This document shows positions 1,782 through 9,745 of a DNA stretch of 11,547 nt, piece after piece (within the stretch, counting starts at the first letter, position 1; each line of letters opens with the position of its first letter). Location of the stretch: the IMG/VR virus record IMGVR_UViG_2529292734_000012. One strand, 5' to 3'. Source of the stretch: a virus (lineage: Duplodnaviria > Heunggongvirae > Uroviricota > Caudoviricetes). Under the pieces are notes generated by a model. It made no database searches and was not told where the DNA came from. It saw only the letters and a program-made list of their open reading frames with translations. The translations under genes were made by a program, and so were the position numbers.

Positions 1782-3023
1782 ATGGCACGAAAAACCACCC
1801 CACTAACTATTACGGAGATCAAAAACGCACGACCAGGGGAAAAGGAATATACCCTGCAGGATGGCGGAGGATTATTTCTTCTGGTGAAGCCCTCCGGATC
1901 AAAAATCTGGCGTTTTACGTACTACCGCCCGGCAGATAAAAAACGGACTATTATCAGCCTTGGATCGCTAAATGATGTTTCCCTGTCTGATGCCAGAGAG
2001 CGACGGAATGAATACAGGTCACTCATAGCAAAGGGAACTGACCCACAGGACTACGAACGCCGGAAACGTGAAGCAGAGAGCAGGAAAAAGGGCAACACGT
2101 TCGAAAAAGTTGCCTTGGACTGGTACGAGATGAAAAAAGGCCAGAATCTGGCTTACAACACGATTAAGGATATCTGGCGATCCCTGGAAAAATACGTATT
2201 CCCGTACATCGGAAACACGCCAATAGATACCCTCACCGCTCGCCGCTTTGTTGAGATACTCACACCCATTAAAGCACGCGGCAACCTGGAAACTCTGAAA
2301 CGCGTTTTACAACGCATCAATGAAGTGATGGATTTTGCTGCCAACAGTGGGCTGATTGACATCAACACCGCCGCGAACGTCCGCAAGGCATTCCCTTCCC
2401 CCACTAAAAAGCATATGCCAACCATCCGACCGGAACAGCTACCGCAGCTAATGCACGATTTATCGGTCGCCAGCATAGAACGGCAAACCAGATTGCTAAT
2501 CGAGTGGCAACTGCTGACCGTAGCACGCCCAGCCGAAGCAGCCGCCGCACGCTGGGAAGAAATAGATCTCGATGCCGAAACATGGACGATTCCAGCCGGA
2601 CGCATGAAGATGCGCCGTGACCATGTGATCCCTCTTTGCGGTCAGGCGATGGCTGTACTGGAAACAATGAAGCCAATCAGCGCACACAGGGAACATGTTT
2701 TTCCCAGCCTTAAAAATCCAATACTGCCAATGAGCAGCCAGACCGCTAACGCTGCATTGCGCCGGATGGGATACGCTGGTGTGCTGGTGTCTCACGGATT
2801 ACGCGCCATATTCAGTACAGCAGCGAACGAGGAAGGATTCGAGCCGGACGTAATCGAGGCCGCACTCGCACACGTGGACACGAACGAGGTAAGGCGAGCA
2901 TATAACCGAAGTAACTACCTGGAAAAACGTGTAGTACTTATGCGCTGGTGGGGTGAATTTGTGGAAGCCGCAGCAACCGGAGTGACCATAGCCAGTGGTA
3001 AAAGGGGTATCCGTGCGGTGTAA
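1782..3023 (+). CDS. int: Tyrosine site-specific integrase, P4-like family (413 aa)
   Basis: Located about 200 bp downstream of a tRNA gene. N-terminal arm-binding-like region (GLFLLVKPSGSKIWRFTYY). C-terminal catalytic motifs HGLRAIFST (H-x-x-R) and RAYNRSNY (catalytic Tyr region). Confidence 0.9.
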   Translation: MARKTTPLTITEIKNARPGEKEYTLQDGGGLFLLVKPSGSKIWRFTYYRPADKKRTIISLGSLNDVSLSDARERRNEYRSLIAKGTDPQDYERRKREAESRKKGNTFEKVALDWYEMKKGQNLAYNTIKDIWRSLEKYVFPYIGNTPIDTLTARRFVEILTPIKARGNLETLKRVLQRINEVMDFAANSGLIDINTAANVRKAFPSPTKKHMPTIRPEQLPQLMHDLSVASIERQTRLLIEWQLLTVARPAEAAAARWEEIDLDAETWTIPAGRMKMRRDHVIPLCGQAMAVLETMKPISAHREHVFPSLKNPILPMSSQTANAALRRMGYAGVLVSHGLRAIFSTAANEEGFEPDVIEAALAHVDTNEVRRAYNRSNYLEKRVVLMRWWGEFVEAAATGVTIASGKRGIRAV

Positions 3024-3026
3024 CTG

Positions 3027-3076
3027 TACAAAAAACCAGTACAACCAGTGCAAACCATGCTAAACCATCGTATAAT
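3027..3076 (+). promoter_or_regulatory. Degenerate ~9-bp tandem repeats overlapping a putative promoter (-10 TATAAT at 3071-3076)
   Basis: CCAGTACAA / CCAGTGCAA / ACCATGCTAA / ACCATCGTA in tandem, immediately followed by TATAAT. Confidence 0.35.
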
Positions 3077-3136
3077 CGCCTATCTCCTCAACAGACAAGG
3101 AAAAACCCGACTCATGAGAAATCGAGATTTATTGAA

Positions 3137-3379
3137 ATGGTCTGGCACGAAAAATCATCCAATGTCTGCGGTGAAGGGCTGCAACTGGCGTTAATGGCAA
3201 ATCGTGAATTCTGGTCAACATACGATCCGGAAGACAAATCAACAGCCCCCACAAAACACGAGGTAGTCAGTTTTTTACGCTCGCGTGGCGCATCGAAAAA
3301 TCTGGCTGAAAGCATCGACAAGGTGCTGAGGCCCACCAGCCTTAAATGTGGTGGGCGACCTAAGAAGTGGAAACGGTAA
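3137..3379 (+). CDS. Hypothetical small protein (80 aa; alternative start at 3194), basic C-terminus
   Basis: ORF sits between a promoter-like element and a strong intrinsic terminator. There is no convincing Shine-Dalgarno sequence and no family was recognised. Confidence 0.35.
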   Translation: MVWHEKSSNVCGEGLQLALMANREFWSTYDPEDKSTAPTKHEVVSFLRSRGASKNLAESIDKVLRPTSLKCGGRPKKWKR

Positions 3380-3384
3380 TCACA

Positions 3385-3416
3385 ATAGCGGCCCCTTGCG
3401 GTCGCTATTTTTTTGC
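3385..3416 (+). terminator. Rho-independent terminator
   Basis: GC-rich hairpin AGCGGCC-CCTTGC-GGTCGCT followed by ATTTTTTTG. Confidence 0.65.
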
Positions 3417-3449
3417 AAAAAGAAAGCGTAATCAATGAGATAAAAAACA

Positions 3450-3484
3450 GTGAGTACCGTTTTAAAACGGTGAGTACTGTTTTT
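3450..3484. promoter_or_regulatory. Direct repeat GTGAGTAC(C/T)GTTTT x2 flanking a perfect 16-bp palindrome ACCGTTTTAAAACGGT, upstream of the AlpA-like gene
   Basis: Copies at 3450-3463 and 3470-3483; palindrome at 3456-3471. Candidate operator or activator site. Confidence 0.45.
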
Positions 3485-3548
3485 CCCGCCCTGCCCTGTT
3501 TTACCGTATTTACCACCGGAATACGCCGGATTAACGAGGTAAAACACG

Positions 3549-3755
3549 ATGGAAGTAATCAGAAAAATTCTTACCCGTCAGGAAGTAAAAAATATTCTGC
3601 GCATCAAGGCAGACAGTTCGCTACAGGACATGATCAACGCCGGAAAATTCCCGAAAGGCTTCAAAATCGGTCTGCGCCGTGTTGGCTGGTATGAAGATGA
3701 GGTGCAGGCCTGGTTGAAAGAACGCGAGGAAGAAGCGCGCGGAACGGCTGCGTAA
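3549..3755 (+). CDS. alpA: AlpA-family phage transcriptional regulator / excisionase-like HTH protein (68 aa)
   Basis: Short MerR-like HTH protein (LTRQEVKNILRIKADSSLQDMINAGKFPKGFKIGLRRVGWYEDEVQAWL) with the conserved Trp-containing C-terminus typical of AlpA/Vis proteins. GAGGT RBS. Position just after the integrase as in P4-like and PICI elements. Confidence 0.75.
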   Translation: MEVIRKILTRQEVKNILRIKADSSLQDMINAGKFPKGFKIGLRRVGWYEDEVQAWLKEREEEARGTAA

Positions 3756-3903
3756 TGGTGTGAGGTGTAACGCAATGAACATAACAAAAAGCGCCCCGTT
3801 GCCGGAGCGCCCTTGTGAACAATTAACCTGCTGCGAAAAAAATGGATCAGTGCAGGGGAATTATATCAACTGTGTGAAGAAGCGCCACTATTGCCGGATA
3901 ACA

Positions 3904-3934
3904 GGCAAAGAAAAGGCCACCAGTCACGGTGGCC
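3904..3934 (-). terminator. Rho-independent terminator for the minus-strand small-gene pair
   Basis: Perfect inverted repeat GGCCACC-agtcac-GGTGGCC (3915-3934); on the minus strand it is followed by TTTTCTTTG. Confidence 0.6.
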
Positions 3935-4013
3935 CTGCGACACAAATTTCGCGTTATCCCCAACGCATGAGCATCGCCAACAATGCCACATTTGCGGCTG
4001 GTGGGCAATGCAA

Positions 4014-4202
4014 TCAGTCTGGTTCAGTTCGTTGCCATACCTGCAATGAGCGCTTTTCCCTGTACTCTTTAAGAAATTGCTCAAGGGCAAAAGCACATGG
4101 CGCGAATCTTTCTGATTCATGCTCTATCTTTCTGCGCCGTCTTTTCCGTGCCGGTGATAATGTTTTGGTCAATTCTTTATCGGTCATTGTGTTGTCCTGC
4201 AT
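4014..4202 (-). CDS. Hypothetical small basic protein (62 aa; likely start at the second Met, 4187, giving 57 aa)
   Basis: AGGA lies 8 nt upstream of the ATG at 4187. KRRRRK basic cluster. Sits downstream of the RHH-like gene and upstream of the minus-strand terminator. No family recognised. Confidence 0.45.
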   Translation of the reverse strand: MQDNTMTDKELTKTLSPARKRRRRKIEHESERFAPCAFALEQFLKEYREKRSLQVWQRTEPD

Positions 4203-4244
4203 AGCAATGCGCCGTAGTTACTCACACCACGGCGCTGGTGATGG

Positions 4245-4424
4245 TTACTCCTGCTCTTTGGCCTTGCGGCGCTGGCGGCGTTTGATCTCGCCTTGCATTG
4301 ACGCAATGATGAATTGTGATGTGCTTTCGCCTGATTCTTTCACTGATTCCATGGCGTTTACTATTTCGTGTGGTACACGAGCCTTTAGAGCTTGTGATTT
4401 TGCGTTTGTTGTACCCGTTGCCAT
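4245..4424 (-). CDS. Small ribbon-helix-helix (Arc/CopG-like) DNA-binding protein, candidate repressor (59 aa)
   Basis: GAGGAA RBS 6 nt upstream of the ATG at 4424. Sequence MATGTTNAKSQALKARVPHEIVNAMESVKESGESTSQFIIASMQ fits a beta-strand/helix/helix RHH pattern. Divergent from the + strand operon promoter. Confidence 0.55.
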   Translation of the reverse strand: MATGTTNAKSQALKARVPHEIVNAMESVKESGESTSQFIIASMQGEIKRRQRRKAKEQE

Positions 4425-4485
4425 TTCTATTCCTCTGTTGGATTGGTGGGGGACAGTATACACAGAAAAAGCACAAATAAAACCC

Positions 4486-4526
4486 TTGACGTGGGCCACA
4501 CCTAAAGCATATAGTGGGCCACACCT
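4486..4526 (+). promoter_or_regulatory. Strong sigma70-like promoter for the rightward replication operon, with 13-bp direct-repeat operators overlapping -35 and -10
   Basis: TTGACG (4486-4491), 18-bp spacer, TATAGT (4510-4515). GTGGGCCACACCT at 4491-4503 and again at 4514-4526. Confidence 0.6.
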
Positions 4527-4552
4527 TGAGATTATCAAGGTGCATAGATGCA

Positions 4553-4587
4553 AAGCCCCGCAAGTGTCGTTACCACTCGCAGGGCTT
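4553..4587 (+). ncRNA. Stable stem-loop in the leader of the rightward operon (candidate regulatory or processed RNA element)
   Basis: 14-bp stem AAGCCCCGCAAGTG / CACTCGCAGGGCTT with two mismatches and a 7-nt loop; no following U-run. Lies about 30 nt downstream of the predicted transcription start. Confidence 0.3.
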
Positions 4588-4623
4588 CTAACCACCAACG
4601 ATAGCGAAAGTATCGAGGTAGCT

Positions 4624-4830
4624 ATGTTAAATCATACCACACACCCGCAAGGGCGGGACTCGTACAACCTGAATAAATACATCTGGCGTTTTATCGCCCT
4701 GAGCACGGCACAACCGCGTGTGATTACCATTGAGGCCACCAGCGAACAGGAAGCGCGTCAGCAATCTCCTGATGGCTGCGTGATGGTATTCGCTGCCCGT
4801 ATTCGCCAGGGGGTAGGCCATGTGCAATAA
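4624..4830 (+). CDS. Hypothetical protein (68 aa), first ORF of the rightward operon
   Basis: ATG at 4624 preceded by GAGGT. It is the C-terminal portion of an otherwise implausible 356-aa frame. Overlaps the next ORF start by 11 nt. Confidence 0.4.
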   Translation: MLNHTTHPQGRDSYNLNKYIWRFIALSTAQPRVITIEATSEQEARQQSPDGCVMVFAARIRQGVGHVQ

Positions 4831-8704: not shown

Positions 8705-9745
8705 ATGAGTGATTTATATTCGCCAGCCATGTTAATACAGGTTGTTAATGCCGAAGATATTCAATGGCAGATTAATTCTTTATTTATAAACCTGTTTTTT
8801 AAGCGAGTCGTTACATTTGAGACGCGGGATATTGCGCTTGATATTATTGACGATCCAGACATCCCGATGGCTGCATTTTGTTCCCCTATGGTTGGTAGTA
8901 AAGTCTCACGCGATGAAGGCTACGAATCAAAAGTAATTCGCCCTGGCTATATGAAGCCAAAAAGTAGTATCGACCCAAATAAAATAGCCGTTCGTCAACC
9001 AGGCGTATCACCTGAACAATTCAATGCATATTCATCACGCAGTTTCAAAATAAAGCGAGCGTTAGTAAGACAAGCGCAGGCAATTCGTGCGCGTATTGAG
9101 TGGCTTGCTGTTCAGGCGGTTACAACGGGGAAAAATATCATTGAAGGCGATGGAATTGAACGTTATGAACTGGACTGGAATATAAAACCACAAAATATTA
9201 TCACGCAGTCCGGCGGCACGGAGTGGAGCGGTAGAGATTTATCAACATTTGATCCAAACGATGACATCGAAGAGTACGCAGAAATCAGCGAAGGTACTAC
9301 AAATATCATCGTAATGGGCCGCAACGTATGGAAAAAATACCGCGCCTTTAAAGCAGTAAAAGATTGCCTTGATACTCGACGGGGATCTAATTCCGTTCTT
9401 GAAACGGCCCTGAAAAATCTTGGGGATTCTGTAAGCTTCAAGGGTTACGTTGGCGATGTTGCTATTGTGGTATATAGCGGACGTTATACCGACGAGGACG
9501 GCAAAGAAAAATATTTCCTTGATCCTGATTTGATGGTGCTTGGCAACACATCATTACAGGGCATCGTTGCCTACGGTGGCATTCAGGATCCTGAGTTAAT
9601 CAGAATGGGGCTGACTAAAGCCGAACTTGCGCCGAAAAATTACATCGTACCAGGTGATCCGGCTATTGAATATGTGCAGACGCACAGCGCACCGCAACCA
9701 ATACCGGCCCGCATCAATCGTTTTGTTACCGTTCGCATTGGTTAA
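8705..9745 (+). CDS. Phage major capsid protein, lambda gpE family (346 aa)
   Basis: Long collinear similarity to lambda gpE as I recall it: ITQSGGTEWS, FKAVK..LDTRRGSNS.LETA, GDVAIVVYSG, MVLGNT, YGGIQD. Similar length (346 vs 341 aa). AAGAGG RBS. Confidence 0.9.
   Translation: MSDLYSPAMLIQVVNAEDIQWQINSLFINLFFKRVVTFETRDIALDIIDDPDIPMAAFCSPMVGSKVSRDEGYESKVIRPGYMKPKSSIDPNKIAVRQPGVSPEQFNAYSSRSFKIKRALVRQAQAIRARIEWLAVQAVTTGKNIIEGDGIERYELDWNIKPQNIITQSGGTEWSGRDLSTFDPNDDIEEYAEISEGTTNIIVMGRNVWKKYRAFKAVKDCLDTRRGSNSVLETALKNLGDSVSFKGYVGDVAIVVYSGRYTDEDGKEKYFLDPDLMVLGNTSLQGIVAYGGIQDPELIRMGLTKAELAPKNYIVPGDPAIEYVQTHSAPQPIPARINRFVTVRIG

What the first reader, a model, noticed from the sequence alone, without database searches (positions are those of the whole stretch)
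4014..4202. Small basic protein (KRRRRK) co-transcribed after the RHH gene
A two-gene minus-strand unit of RHH followed by a small second protein, ending in a dedicated terminator, resembles the layout of RHH-antitoxin/toxin or repressor/co-repressor pairs. The second protein (57-62 aa) is too short for RelE/ParE and matches no family I recognise.
Basis: inference. Interest (0 to 1): 0.35.

Follow-up and report, generated by a model that had tools for sequence, protein, structure and literature searches.

The report
Small conserved gene behind satellite repressor
The ORF is a real but uncharacterised 57-residue gene that rides behind the ribbon-helix-helix repressor gene of an E. coli phage satellite; it is probably an accessory passenger rather than a toxin, and both genes lie antisense inside a long frame that is kept free of stop codons on the other strand.

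Summary
A minus-strand ORF at 4014-4202 follows the YlcI/YnfO (RHH-like) gene (4245-4424) after a constant 57-nt gap and ends before a terminator (3913-3936). The real start is ATG 4187 (57 aa), with a conserved AGG(A) ribosome site.

It looks protein-coding. All 29 distinct variants (44-100% identity) are intact, and their amino-acid changes are conservative in this frame and radical in the antisense frame.

The family is tiny and confined to Escherichia/Shigella satellites (phrog_21027, unknown function). It has no Pfam, NCBIfam, PADLOC, PDB or fold match.

The toxin/antitoxin and co-repressor readings are poorly supported:
- The near-invariant small gene sits behind at least nine RHH alleles, some only 43 aa, each with its own operator repeats.
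- The RHH occurs without the small gene in ten loci from other genera.
- The small gene stays intact where the RHH is frameshifted or pseudogenised.

Best reading: a moron-like accessory cistron of the satellite's immunity operon, acting on an invariant target through a conserved ~20-residue helix. Its function is unknown.

Wider context: the whole cassette lies antisense within a stop-free frame running from alpA to the Icd-like gene, the counterpart of P4 eta/kil. That arrangement is statistically robust, and I found no description of it.

The parts
4014..4187 (-). Small ORF, 57 aa plus stop (MTDKELTKTLSPARKRRRRKIEHESERFAPCAFALEQFLKEYREKRSLQVWQRTEPD). Conserved core is about residues 22-42.
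   Evidence: phrog_21027 E 1.2e-15. AF2: two helices, pLDDT 70.7 overall and about 91 for residues 31-40.
4188..4202 (-). Five-codon extension from the upstream in-frame ATG 4202 (the 62-aa reading). Probably not the start used.
   Evidence: ATG 4202 is replaced by TTTACAGG in diverged variants, while ATG 4187 is invariant. Most database homologues start at MTDKE.
4195..4198 (-). Shine-Dalgarno-like AGGA, 7 nt before ATG 4187. (C)AGG is conserved in all variants.
4209..4235 (-). Intercistronic stem-loop in the 57-nt gap (GCGCCGUGGU-GUGAGUA-ACUACGGCGC), with no U-tract. It belongs to the same conserved cassette as the ORF.
   Evidence: 93% of cells paired in 15 distinct variants, changes mostly G-C to G-U. 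Covariation does not exceed the shuffles, so function is unproven.
3996..4237 (.). Mosaic cassette (hairpin, SD, small ORF and 18 nt past the stop). It stays 95-100% identical between elements whose flanks are about 65-80% identical or unrelated.
   Evidence: Caveat: the loci were selected through the small ORF.
4245..4424 (-). First cistron: YlcI/YnfO-family, RHH-like candidate immunity repressor (59 aa).
   Evidence: NCBIfam NF041551 E 7.9e-19, phrog_949, hhalign to P22 Arc E 0.003. Top Foldseek hits are Arc/CopG/VapB but not significant. Operators are allele-specific.
3913..3936 (-). Intrinsic-terminator-like hairpin with T-run ending the RHH-small ORF unit.
   Evidence: An equivalent terminator follows the small ORF in L084.
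3787..3814 (-). Second minus-strand terminator-like hairpin, just before the 3' end of alpA.
4486..4515 (+). Sigma-70-like promoter (TTGACG-18-TATAGT) facing the Icd-like/replication operon.
   Evidence: (consensus scan only), sequence
4491..4526 (.). Two exact 13-bp repeats GTGGGCCACACCT (4491-4503 and 4514-4526) overlapping the -35 and -10 of that promoter. Candidate operators of the RHH protein.
   Evidence: Other RHH alleles carry different repeats at the same place.
3718..4830 (+). Stop-free plus-strand frame (371 codons; first starts GTG 3760 and ATG 3775). It runs from the end of alpA, antisense through both minus-strand genes, to the stop of the Icd-like gene. Counterpart of P4 eta with nested kil.
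   Evidence: P4 comparison. P4 mechanism from PMC10111431.
4624..4830 (+). Icd-like (Kil-like) gene, nested in frame at the 3' end of the long open frame.
   Evidence: NF033153 E 1e-19, RefSeq annotation
3549..3755 (+). alpA (Phage_AlpA), the satellite activator. The long open frame begins 37 nt before its stop.
   Evidence: role of AlpA from PMC6092414

Best explanation
The ORF is a real translated gene of 57 aa (start 4187). It is the second cistron of the operon that encodes the ribbon-helix-helix immunity repressor of an E. coli phage-inducible chromosomal island, here a capsid-encoding PICI at tRNA-Pro next to yejM.

Shown by the analyses:
- The operon layout, the conserved ribosome site and the terminator.
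- Amino-acid-level purifying selection in this frame.
- Restriction to Escherichia/Shigella satellites.
- Free reassortment with many heteroimmune RHH/operator alleles.
- Dispensability of the pairing in both directions.

Inferred: it is a moron-like accessory passenger inserted between the repressor's stop codon and its terminator, so it is made together with the repressor while the island is quiescent. Only a ~20-residue helix (E-x-E-R-F-A-P-C-x-F-x-L-E-x-F-L-K-x-Y) is conserved. The basic N-terminal arm and the C-terminal tail vary. The protein therefore most likely works as a small, largely disordered adaptor or inhibitor. It would dock through that helix on a target that does not change between islands: a host factor, a lambdoid helper-phage factor, or the conserved Icd-like domain. 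The KRRRRK arm would add non-specific nucleic-acid affinity. It is probably neither a toxin nor a specific co-repressor of its RHH neighbour. The gene must also coexist with a constraint on the opposite strand, the eta-like frame that has to stay open, and its composition satisfies this almost automatically.
For: Layout. The 57-nt gap is constant in every locus where an upstream RHH ORF was called (GTG-start Arc-like alleles), and SD plus ATG are conserved.

Coding: all 29 variants are intact. pN/pS is 0.36-0.43. BLOSUM62 of mismatches is -0.12 overall and +0.67 in the core, against -1.17 antisense and -0.4 to -1.0 in the other frames. The bootstrap CI of the difference is 0.61-1.47.

Narrow family: 36 clusters, all E. 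coli/Shigella. Nine representatives among 1.84 billion proteins, one of them spurious. No match in 50,697 phage genomes. phrog_21027, function unknown.

Independence from the RHH: the RHH occurs as many alleles of 43-106 aa from two families, each with its own operator repeats. The RHH is alone in 10 loci of other genera. The small ORF is intact beside a frameshifted or pseudogenised RHH.

Conserved helix and variable arm.

Antisense-frame openness costs the gene little: P = 0.90 under synonymous resampling.
Against: There is no expression, proteomic or phenotypic evidence. pN/pS is only moderately low, and the antisense frame scores 0.46-0.53, so the strand call rests on the type of substitution, the SD/ATG and protein-likeness. 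The loci were mostly chosen through the small ORF, which inflates its apparent conservation relative to the flanks. The AF2 model is of modest confidence (pLDDT 70.7, pTM 0.35). The 'adaptor on an invariant target' mechanism is inference with no identified partner. RelE-type co-repression without strict co-variation cannot be formally excluded.
Confidence: 0.55

Rival explanations
1. Type II toxin-antitoxin pair: the RHH protein is the antitoxin and autorepressor, and the small basic protein is a new short toxin.
For: Antitoxin-first bicistronic layout with an RHH protein. The RHH C-terminal tail (EIKRRQRRKAKEQE) is shared by many YlcI alleles.
Against: No toxin family, defence model, PDB or fold match. 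57 aa, hydrophilic, helical and mostly low-confidence. Arc-like partners of 43-59 aa lack any neutralising tail. There is no co-variation. The RHH is alone in other genera. The small ORF is intact with a frameshifted RHH in three loci and beside a pseudogenised RHH in L103/L104.
Confidence: 0.06
2. Co-repressor or modulator of the RHH repressor, like RelE for RelB or Lxc/Bof for P1 C1. It would bind the repressor-operator complex and tighten repression of the Icd-like/replication promoter.
For: Co-transcription with the candidate repressor. A basic arm could contact DNA. The operators overlap the promoter.
Against: An essentially identical small protein accompanies RHH proteins of two different families and many operator specificities. 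The repressor functions without it in other genera. The basic arm is absent from distant family members such as L088 and L102.
Confidence: 0.12
3. Not a functional protein. The ORF would be a by-product of constraints on the overlapping plus-strand eta-like frame, or of an RNA-level function (antisense pairing between convergent transcripts, the 4209-4235 hairpin). Translation, if any, would only protect the transcript.
For: The region is unusually conserved at the nucleotide level. The plus-strand frame is open in every variant. pN/pS of the two overlapping frames is similar. PGAP often annotates the plus strand here instead.
Against: Substitutions are conservative only in the minus-strand frame. 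SD and ATG are conserved. The plus-strand translation has no family match and is Cys/Ser/Arg-rich. Folding z-scores are unremarkable at -1.5 and -1.9, and there is no Rfam hit.
Confidence: 0.12
4. Antidote or second lock for the lytic-type operon. The small protein would neutralise leaky Icd-like (Kil) protein. Alternatively, through its Arg-rich arm, it would bind the convergent alpA-eta transcript and block its translation or antitermination, as lambda N and HK022 Nun peptides bind RNA.
For: It is expressed from the maintenance transcript opposite the Icd-like operon. The Icd-like domain is the one element present in all loci. There is an Arg-rich motif.
Against: Icd-like proteins next to an identical small protein vary from 41 to 100% identity. 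Satellites in other genera have Icd-like genes without it. The Arg-rich arm is not conserved across the family. No target RNA has been identified.
Confidence: 0.12

Closest known systems
Satellite phage P4 immunity region (vis/alpA - eta with nested kil - CI RNA)
   Same: Same gene order and logic on the plus strand. An AlpA-family gene is followed by a long frame that starts at or over its stop and ends in an Icd-like/Kil domain (P4 ORF 8812-8168: Phage_ASH plus NF033153; window 3718-4830). There is also an internal promoter upstream of the Icd-like start. [quoted passage not shown]
   Different: The window gave no match to any Rfam family other than its tRNA, so no C4/isrK-type CI/seqA RNA, and it has no Ash domain. 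In that position, on the opposite strand, sit a protein repressor gene (RHH) and the small ORF. P4 has no counterpart of the small ORF.
Type II toxin-antitoxin operons with RHH antitoxins (RelBE, ParDE, CcdAB)
   Same: An RHH gene comes first, a small second gene lies immediately downstream, and repeats occur in the promoter region.
   Different: The second protein is 57 aa with no toxin fold. There is no co-variation or obligate pairing, and some RHH partners are too short to carry a toxin-binding tail.
Prophage morons and exclusion genes co-transcribed with the repressor (lambda cI-rexAB; HK022 nun, from general knowledge)
   Same: A gene expressed from the maintenance transcript. It has its own ribosome site, sits between the repressor gene and a terminator, is mosaic in distribution, and is absent from related elements.
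   Different: There is no sequence or structural similarity and no demonstrated exclusion phenotype. The Arg-rich motif is not conserved, as it would be in an N/Nun-type peptide.
P22 immI Arc/Mnt and other phage RHH repressors
   Same: Small RHH proteins with short tandem or palindromic operators overlapping a promoter. Some alleles here are Arc-like (Pfam Arc E 0.038, phrog_228 E 1.5e-6).
   Different: Here the RHH gene lies antisense within a translated leader of the operon it presumably represses, and it carries a conserved passenger cistron.
phrog_21027 / RefSeq WP_000130015.1 'hypothetical protein'
   Same: The window protein is a member (E 1.2e-15). The CFT073 copy translates to the same sequence as the window's.
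   Different: Neither record carries any function.

Membership tests
Type II toxin-antitoxin (RHH antitoxin + toxin) | Adjacent bicistronic operon with the antitoxin upstream | tested here: met
   RHH 4245-4424, then the small ORF 4014-4187 after 57 nt, with no terminator between them
Type II toxin-antitoxin (RHH antitoxin + toxin) | Second protein belongs to a toxin fold or family (RelE/ParE, CcdB, PIN, etc.) | tested here: not met
   No Pfam, NCBIfam, PADLOC or PDB-sequence match. No Foldseek match. AF2 gives two helices.
Type II toxin-antitoxin (RHH antitoxin + toxin) | Cognate pairing: the antitoxin carries a toxin-binding extension and co-varies with the toxin | tested here: not met
   Identical small protein behind RHH alleles of 43-106 aa from two families. 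Near-identical RHH alleles pair with small proteins of 44-100% identity.
Type II toxin-antitoxin (RHH antitoxin + toxin) | Obligate co-occurrence: no intact toxin without an antitoxin | tested here: not met
   RHH alone in 10 loci of other genera. Small ORF intact beside a frameshifted RHH (L016/L038/L048) and a pseudogenised RHH (L104).
Type II toxin-antitoxin (RHH antitoxin + toxin) | Growth arrest by the toxin, relieved by the antitoxin | not testable with these tools
   Needs an expression experiment
Ribbon-helix-helix (Arc/MetJ/CopG) fold, for the upstream gene | N-terminal beta-strand followed by two helices with a G-x-S/T turn; similarity to solved RHH proteins | tested here: inconclusive
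   YlcI_YnfO_N E 7.9e-19. hhalign to Arc E 0.003 but probability 11%. Foldseek top hits are VapB/Arc/CopG/CdbA at E of 3 or more. Single-sequence AF2 drew the N-terminal segment as a helix. No PDB sequence hit.
Ribbon-helix-helix (Arc/MetJ/CopG) fold, for the upstream gene | Cognate short repeated or palindromic operators at its own or the divergent promoter | tested here: met
   Window: GTGGGCCACACCT x2 over the -35 and -10. Eight other alleles each have a different repeat at the same place. Binding itself was not tested.
phrog_21027 (the small ORF's own family) | Significant match to the family profile | tested here: met
   E 1.2e-15, residues 1-45 on profile positions 1-46 of 65. The family has no known function.
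P4 eta/kil-type nested translated leader (plus-strand context) | AlpA/Vis-family gene immediately upstream, with the long frame starting at or overlapping its stop | tested here: met
   In the 89 of 95 loci where alpA was located, the open stretch begins close to the alpA stop (offsets -154 to +48 nt, most often +1, -37, -54, -70, +38 or +48) in 80. In the other 9 it begins 589-847 nt downstream, where an intervening BRO-N or AntA gene was seen in the two loci I inspected (L085, L087). P4: ATG 8812 lies inside ORF88/vis, which ends at 8764.
P4 eta/kil-type nested translated leader (plus-strand context) | C-terminal Icd-like/Kil domain in the same frame | tested here: met
   NF033153: window E 1e-19, P4 E 1.4e-20. 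One continuous frame in 68 of 95 loci and two overlapping frames in 26 of the other 27 (one has a 4-nt gap).
P4 eta/kil-type nested translated leader (plus-strand context) | Ash (Bro-network) domain in the long ORF | tested here: not met
   None in window 3775-4623. Present in P4 and in L084/L104-type islands.
P4 eta/kil-type nested translated leader (plus-strand context) | CI/seqA immunity RNA (Rfam C4/isrK) | tested here: not met
   No Rfam family other than the tRNA matched credibly in the window at E up to 1, so no C4/isrK-type RNA
P4 eta/kil-type nested translated leader (plus-strand context) | Translation of the long frame prevents transcription termination | not testable with these tools
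   Only indirect support. The frame has 0 stops in 868 nt against 16-19 in the other plus frames; 2 of 20000 shuffles do as well. 33 of 43 distinct intervals are tiled, against at most 4 of 2000 shuffles. Amino-acid changes in it are unconstrained.
Arginine-rich-motif RNA-binding peptides (lambda N / HK022 Nun type) | Arg-rich arm conserved as the functional core | tested here: not met
   The arm is replaced by SQKTNREHEN in L088 and PEKQHEKTVHE in L102, while the downstream helix stays conserved. pI ranges from 6.7 to 10.5.

The most novel reading that the evidence does not exclude
Many Gram-negative PICIs would carry a protein-based immunity cassette: an RHH repressor with allele-specific operators, plus in Escherichia this conserved small protein. 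The cassette would be overprinted antisense inside an eta-like leader that must be translated for alpA-driven transcription to reach the Icd-like and replication genes. The small protein would be a universal second lock shared by heteroimmune islands. It would act on the convergent alpA-eta transcript or on its Icd-like product to keep the island silent until a helper phage raises AlpA.
Probability: 0.1. Interest if true: 0.7.

Novelty: new variant of a known kind. Interest (0 to 1): 0.4.

Why it matters
By itself the ORF is one more conserved hypothetical small protein, although it occurs in over a quarter of complete E. coli genomes. Its setting matters more. [quoted passage not shown] The operon that carries this ORF starts with an RHH gene whose alleles each have their own operator repeats, placed over the promoter of the Icd-like/replication operon. 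That is what an immunity repressor should look like, and it is directly testable. Both genes of this operon are also written antisense inside a frame that is kept free of stop codons in every locus examined. This extends the P4 eta/kil 'translate to avoid termination' logic to an arrangement with protein-coding genes on both strands. It also explains why annotation pipelines flip between strands here. Knowing that the small gene is a freely reassorting passenger, not a toxin, tells experimenters what to look for: an invariant host or helper target.

Tried and rejected
- **Family and structure searches for the small protein found only phrog_21027.** I ran Pfam, NCBIfam, PADLOC, a PDB profile search, PHROGs, an exhaustive HMM search of 1.84 billion representatives, and AF2 plus Foldseek against PDB and BFVD. 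One apparent 1141-aa hit (P0037) is a repetitive, unrelated protein that matches only the 'APCA.AL' stretch.
- **tblastn against phage genomes gave no match.** The six plasmid hits, all in Escherichia (five E. coli, one E. albertii), were not inspected; the smallest record is 10.8 kb.
- **The long plus-strand ORF is not the real gene here.** Its amino-acid changes are as radical as in non-coding frames, it has no family match upstream of the Icd-like part, and its composition is Cys/Ser/Arg-rich.
- **No Rfam family such as C4/isrK explains the conserved module**.
- **Strong RNA structure in the module was not found.** Folding z-scores are -1.5 and -1.9. The intercistronic hairpin is conserved but lacks significant covariation.
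- **An arginine-rich-motif reading was dropped**, because the arm is not conserved across the family.
- **Codon-position variability cannot tell the strands apart.** Positions 1/2/3 vary at 47/45/57 sites, and third positions coincide on the two strands.
- **The RHH fold was not confirmed.** Single-sequence AF2 of the RHH gene gave a helix instead of the expected strand.
- **Literature searches found nothing on this ORF or on YlcI/YnfO in PICIs**. Forti et al. 1999 is not held, so the P4 mechanism is cited second-hand from PMC10111431.
Full report
**Setting.** The window is an E. coli satellite of the phage-inducible chromosomal island (PICI) type, inserted at tRNA-Pro(GGG) (1497-1573) next to yejM.
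- Plus-strand genes: integrase 1782-3023, AlpA 3549-3755, Icd-like 4624-4830, DUF4222, an AAA_25/RepA-type replication protein, SSB, a lambda-E-type major capsid protein, a decoration protein and a Nu1-type small terminase.
- The only convincing minus-strand genes lie between alpA and the Icd-like gene. They are a 59-aa YlcI/YnfO-family gene (4245-4424; NF041551 E 7.9e-19) and the ORF of the finding.

**Observation.**
- The ORF 4014-4202 (62 aa, with KRRRRK) exists as described.
- It follows the YlcI/YnfO stop after 57 nt. That gap holds a stem-loop without a U-tract (4209-4235) and no terminator-like site.
- A terminator-like hairpin with a T-run follows at 3936-3913, and a second at 3814-3787.
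- The start needs correcting. ATG 4202 disappears in diverged copies. ATG 4187, preceded by AGGA at 4195-4198, is invariant, and most database homologues begin MTDKE. The product is therefore 57 aa, identical to what RefSeq annotates in CFT073 as WP_000130015.1, 'hypothetical protein'.

**Which strand is coding?** This needed care. The plus strand carries a 356-aa ORF (3760-4830; open from 3718) running antisense through both minus-strand genes, and PGAP often annotates that strand instead, as an Icd-like or BRO-N pseudogene. Third codon positions of the two frames coincide, so periodicity cannot discriminate.
- I collected about 95 loci. They gave 29 distinct nucleotide versions of the small ORF, at 44-100% protein identity.
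- All 29 are intact, and nine haplotypes encode the identical protein.
- pN/pS is 0.36-0.43 in the minus frame and 0.46-0.53 in the coincident plus frame. That margin alone is weak.
- The kind of substitution is decisive. Mismatches average BLOSUM62 -0.12 (core +0.67) in the minus frame. They average -1.17 in the plus frame, which is like the other four frames at -0.4 to -1.0. The bootstrap over columns gives a 95% CI of 0.61-1.47 for the difference.
- The RHH gene shows the same asymmetry, -0.04 against -1.08.
- The plus-strand translation upstream of the Icd-like part has no family match.
- I conclude that both minus-strand genes encode selected proteins. The plus frame is kept open but is not selected for its amino-acid sequence.

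**What the protein looks like.**
- It has no Pfam, NCBIfam, PADLOC or PDB match. The only hit is phrog_21027, of unknown function (E 1.2e-15).
- The word-indexed search found 36 clusters, all E. coli or Shigella.
- An exhaustive profile search of 1.84 billion representatives found nine hits. One is a spurious repeat protein.
- None of 50,697 phage genomes encodes it.
- AF2 gives two helices (12-27 and 29-54), with mean pLDDT 70.7 and about 91 around residues 31-40. Foldseek finds nothing.
- The invariant part is the stretch E-x-E-R-F-A-P-C-x-F-x-L-E-x-F-L-K-x-Y.
- The Arg-rich arm is replaced by non-basic sequence in distant members (L088, L102). The C-terminal tail exists in at least four unrelated versions.
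- The protein is hydrophilic. Its pI is 9.9 in the window copy and ranges from 6.7 to 10.5 across the family.

**Relation to the RHH gene.** In every locus where an upstream RHH ORF could be called, the small ORF sits 57 nt behind it, but the RHH gene varies widely:
- Several 59-aa YlcI/YnfO alleles, 46-78% identical to the window's in the alignment.
- 101-106-aa YlcI/YnfO forms.
- Unrelated Arc-like proteins of 43, 57 or 59 aa.

Each allele has its own short repeated or palindromic motif in the divergent promoter region:
- Window allele: GTGGGCCAC
- L003: GTGTTGAACAC
- L013: GTGCATCGCAC
- L023: GTGTCAGCCAC
- L084: GGTAATTACC
- L027: GGTGACCACC
- L010: TGGTATTCAC

In the window, the two exact 13-bp copies (4491-4503 and 4514-4526) overlap the -35 and -10 of a TTGACG-18-TATAGT promoter facing the Icd-like operon. 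Co-variation of protein allele and repeat is the signature of an immunity repressor with heteroimmune specificities.

The small protein does not take part in that specificity:
- The same sequence, 97-100% identical, accompanies all these alleles.
- Near-identical RHH alleles are found with small proteins as low as 44% identical.
- The module 3996-4237 behaves as a separate mosaic cassette. This comes with the caveat that the loci were ascertained through it.
- In ten loci from other genera, the YlcI/YnfO gene is followed directly by a terminator or unrelated sequence, with no small ORF. These genera are Pseudocitrobacter, Enterobacter, Superficieibacter, E. ruysiae, Citrobacter, Pectobacterium, Tenebrionibacter, Dryocola, Serratia and Rouxiella.
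- Conversely, the small ORF is intact where the RHH gene is frameshifted (L016/L038/L048). It is also intact where the RHH gene is riddled with stops in a duplicated cassette (L103/L104).

- A toxin-antitoxin pair requires a recognisable or at least toxic second protein, cognate co-variation and obligate pairing. The first could not be shown, and the other two were tested and not met.
- A specific co-repressor is unlikely for the same reasons.
- The pattern fits a moron-like passenger. It has its own ribosome site, is inserted between a repressor gene and its terminator, is expressed from the maintenance transcript, is lineage-restricted, and reassorts freely.
- Only one short helix is conserved. 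I therefore infer a small adaptor or inhibitor that docks on a target constant across islands: a host factor, a helper factor or the Icd-like domain. This last step is inference with no partner identified.

**The opposite strand.** In the window the frame 3718-4830 has no stop. Over the 868 nt between alpA and the Icd-like start, the other plus frames have 19 and 16 stops and the minus frames 7-12. Only 2 of 20,000 dinucleotide shuffles give any stop-free frame.

Across 95 loci:
- The plus strand from the end of alpA (or of an intervening gene, BRO-N or AntA in the two such loci I inspected) to the Icd-like stop is one open frame in 68 loci (305-806 codons).
- It is two overlapping open frames in 26 of the other 27. 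The remaining locus has a 4-nt gap.
- The open stretch begins close to the alpA stop, most often at +1, -37, -54, -70, +38 or +48 nt.

Further support:
- Of 43 intervals less than 85% alike, 33 are tiled with at most one frame switch. The other ten failed because they needed two switches; I did not check why, though the tested interval starts at a fixed 250 nt upstream and may begin inside the preceding gene in some. The minus strand is never tiled, and shuffles succeed at most 4 times in 2000.
- The same long frame, ending in an Icd-like C-terminus and overlapping the RHH gene in antisense, is present in most of the other-genus loci.
- In L103/L104 it spans 800 codons, across a duplicated cassette and a decayed RHH gene.

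P4 supplies the precedent:
- Its ORF 8812-8168 (214 codons) starts inside the vis/AlpA-family ORF88 and carries Phage_ASH plus the same Icd-like domain.
- PMC10111431, citing Forti et al. [quoted passage not shown] It also states that kil is its nested C-terminal form, that an internal constitutive promoter and the CI RNA lie within it, and that eta translation prevents termination.
- The window matches this plan but gave no match to an immunity-RNA family such as C4/isrK and has no Ash domain. In that space, on the other strand, it has the RHH-small ORF operon.
- My reading, which is inferred, is that alpA-driven transcripts must be translated across this interval to reach the Icd-like and replication genes. 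The embedded minus-strand genes therefore evolve under a 'no stop on the other strand' constraint.
- For the small ORF that constraint is nearly free: P(open) is 0.90 under synonymous resampling, against 0.26 for the RHH gene.

**Novelty and literature.**
- The small protein is already catalogued as a hypothetical protein and a PHROG of unknown function.
- I found no paper dealing with it, with YlcI/YnfO in PICIs, or with an antisense protein-repressor cassette inside an eta-like frame.
- Fillol-Salom et al. 2018 state that a global repressor in Gram-negative PICIs is unclear and that AlpA is an activator.
- I rate the finding a new variant of a known kind: a P4-type immunity region with the RNA repressor replaced by an antisense protein cassette plus a passenger gene.
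- The ORF by itself is of modest interest. The arrangement around it is the more notable result.

**Verdict.** Confidence that this is a real accessory cistron of the repressor operon and not a toxin is about 0.55. Confidence in any specific molecular target is low.

Noticed in passing
window 3718-4830 (+); also L001-L104: The plus-strand frame from the end of alpA to the Icd-like stop is free of stop codons (371 codons here, up to 806 in L103). It runs antisense through both minus-strand genes. It is one frame in 68 of 95 loci, two overlapping frames in 26 and two frames 4 nt apart in one, and is also present in other genera. Amino-acid changes in it are unconstrained. It matches the P4 eta/kil nested-gene plan.
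   Followed up: yes
window 4491-4503 and 4514-4526; L003, L010, L013, L023, L027, L065, L084, L085 promoter regions: Each RHH allele has its own short repeated or palindromic motif at the divergent promoter. In the window, GTGGGCCACACCT x2 overlaps the -35 and -10 of the promoter facing the Icd-like operon. This suggests heteroimmune repressor/operator sets, that is, a candidate master repressor for Gram-negative PICIs.
   Followed up: partly
window 3775-4275 (+) and equivalents in RefSeq genomes: PGAP annotation of this interval is inconsistent between genomes. It appears as a minus-strand 57-aa hypothetical protein, a plus-strand 'Icd-like' or 'BRO-N' pseudogene, or nothing. The likely cause is long eta-like ORFs deposited as proteins elsewhere.
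   Followed up: partly
window 4209-4235 (-): A 10-bp stem-loop lies between the two cistrons. It is part of the same conserved cassette as the small ORF and is 93% paired in 15 variants. G-U pairs favour the minus-strand RNA, but covariation is not significant. Its role (processing, stability or translational control) is unknown.
   Followed up: partly
L103/L104 about 2800-4130 (locus coordinates): Tandem duplication of the cassette. The first copy has a YlcI/YnfO gene broken by stop codons and an intact 81-aa small-ORF homologue (P0038). The second copy has an intact 101/114-aa RHH and a 65-aa homologue. The antisense frame stays open across all of it.
   Followed up: partly
L016, L038, L048 (RHH gene upstream of the small ORF): One YlcI/YnfO allele carries a frameshift (the protein truncates after ...DVVADLEKI). 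The small ORF downstream is unchanged and the plus strand is still tiled by two overlapping frames. Sequencing error was not excluded.
   Followed up: no
window 4086-4098 and 4319-4331: A 13-nt inverted repeat (GGCAAAAGCACAT / ATGTGCTTTCGCC, 92% complementary) has one arm inside the small ORF and the other inside the RHH gene. Its significance is unknown and it may be chance.
   Followed up: no
L002 2756-3000 (CFT073), L085 1850-2428, L087 1175-1975: Some islands carry a BRO-N or AntA anti-repressor-type gene between alpA and the cassette. CFT073 keeps only an in-frame remnant of it, fused to the long open frame. This 'Bro zone' is highly mosaic.
   Followed up: no
window 3137-3379 (+): An 80-aa ORF between the integrase and alpA, annotated as a hypothetical protein in RefSeq (WP_000262088.1). 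It has no NCBIfam, PHROG or PADLOC match.
   Followed up: no
P0037: A 1141-aa repetitive protein scored E 1.7e-22 against the family profile, through 13 copies of '...SETVAPCAVAL...'. It is a compositional or repeat artefact, not a relative.
   Followed up: yes
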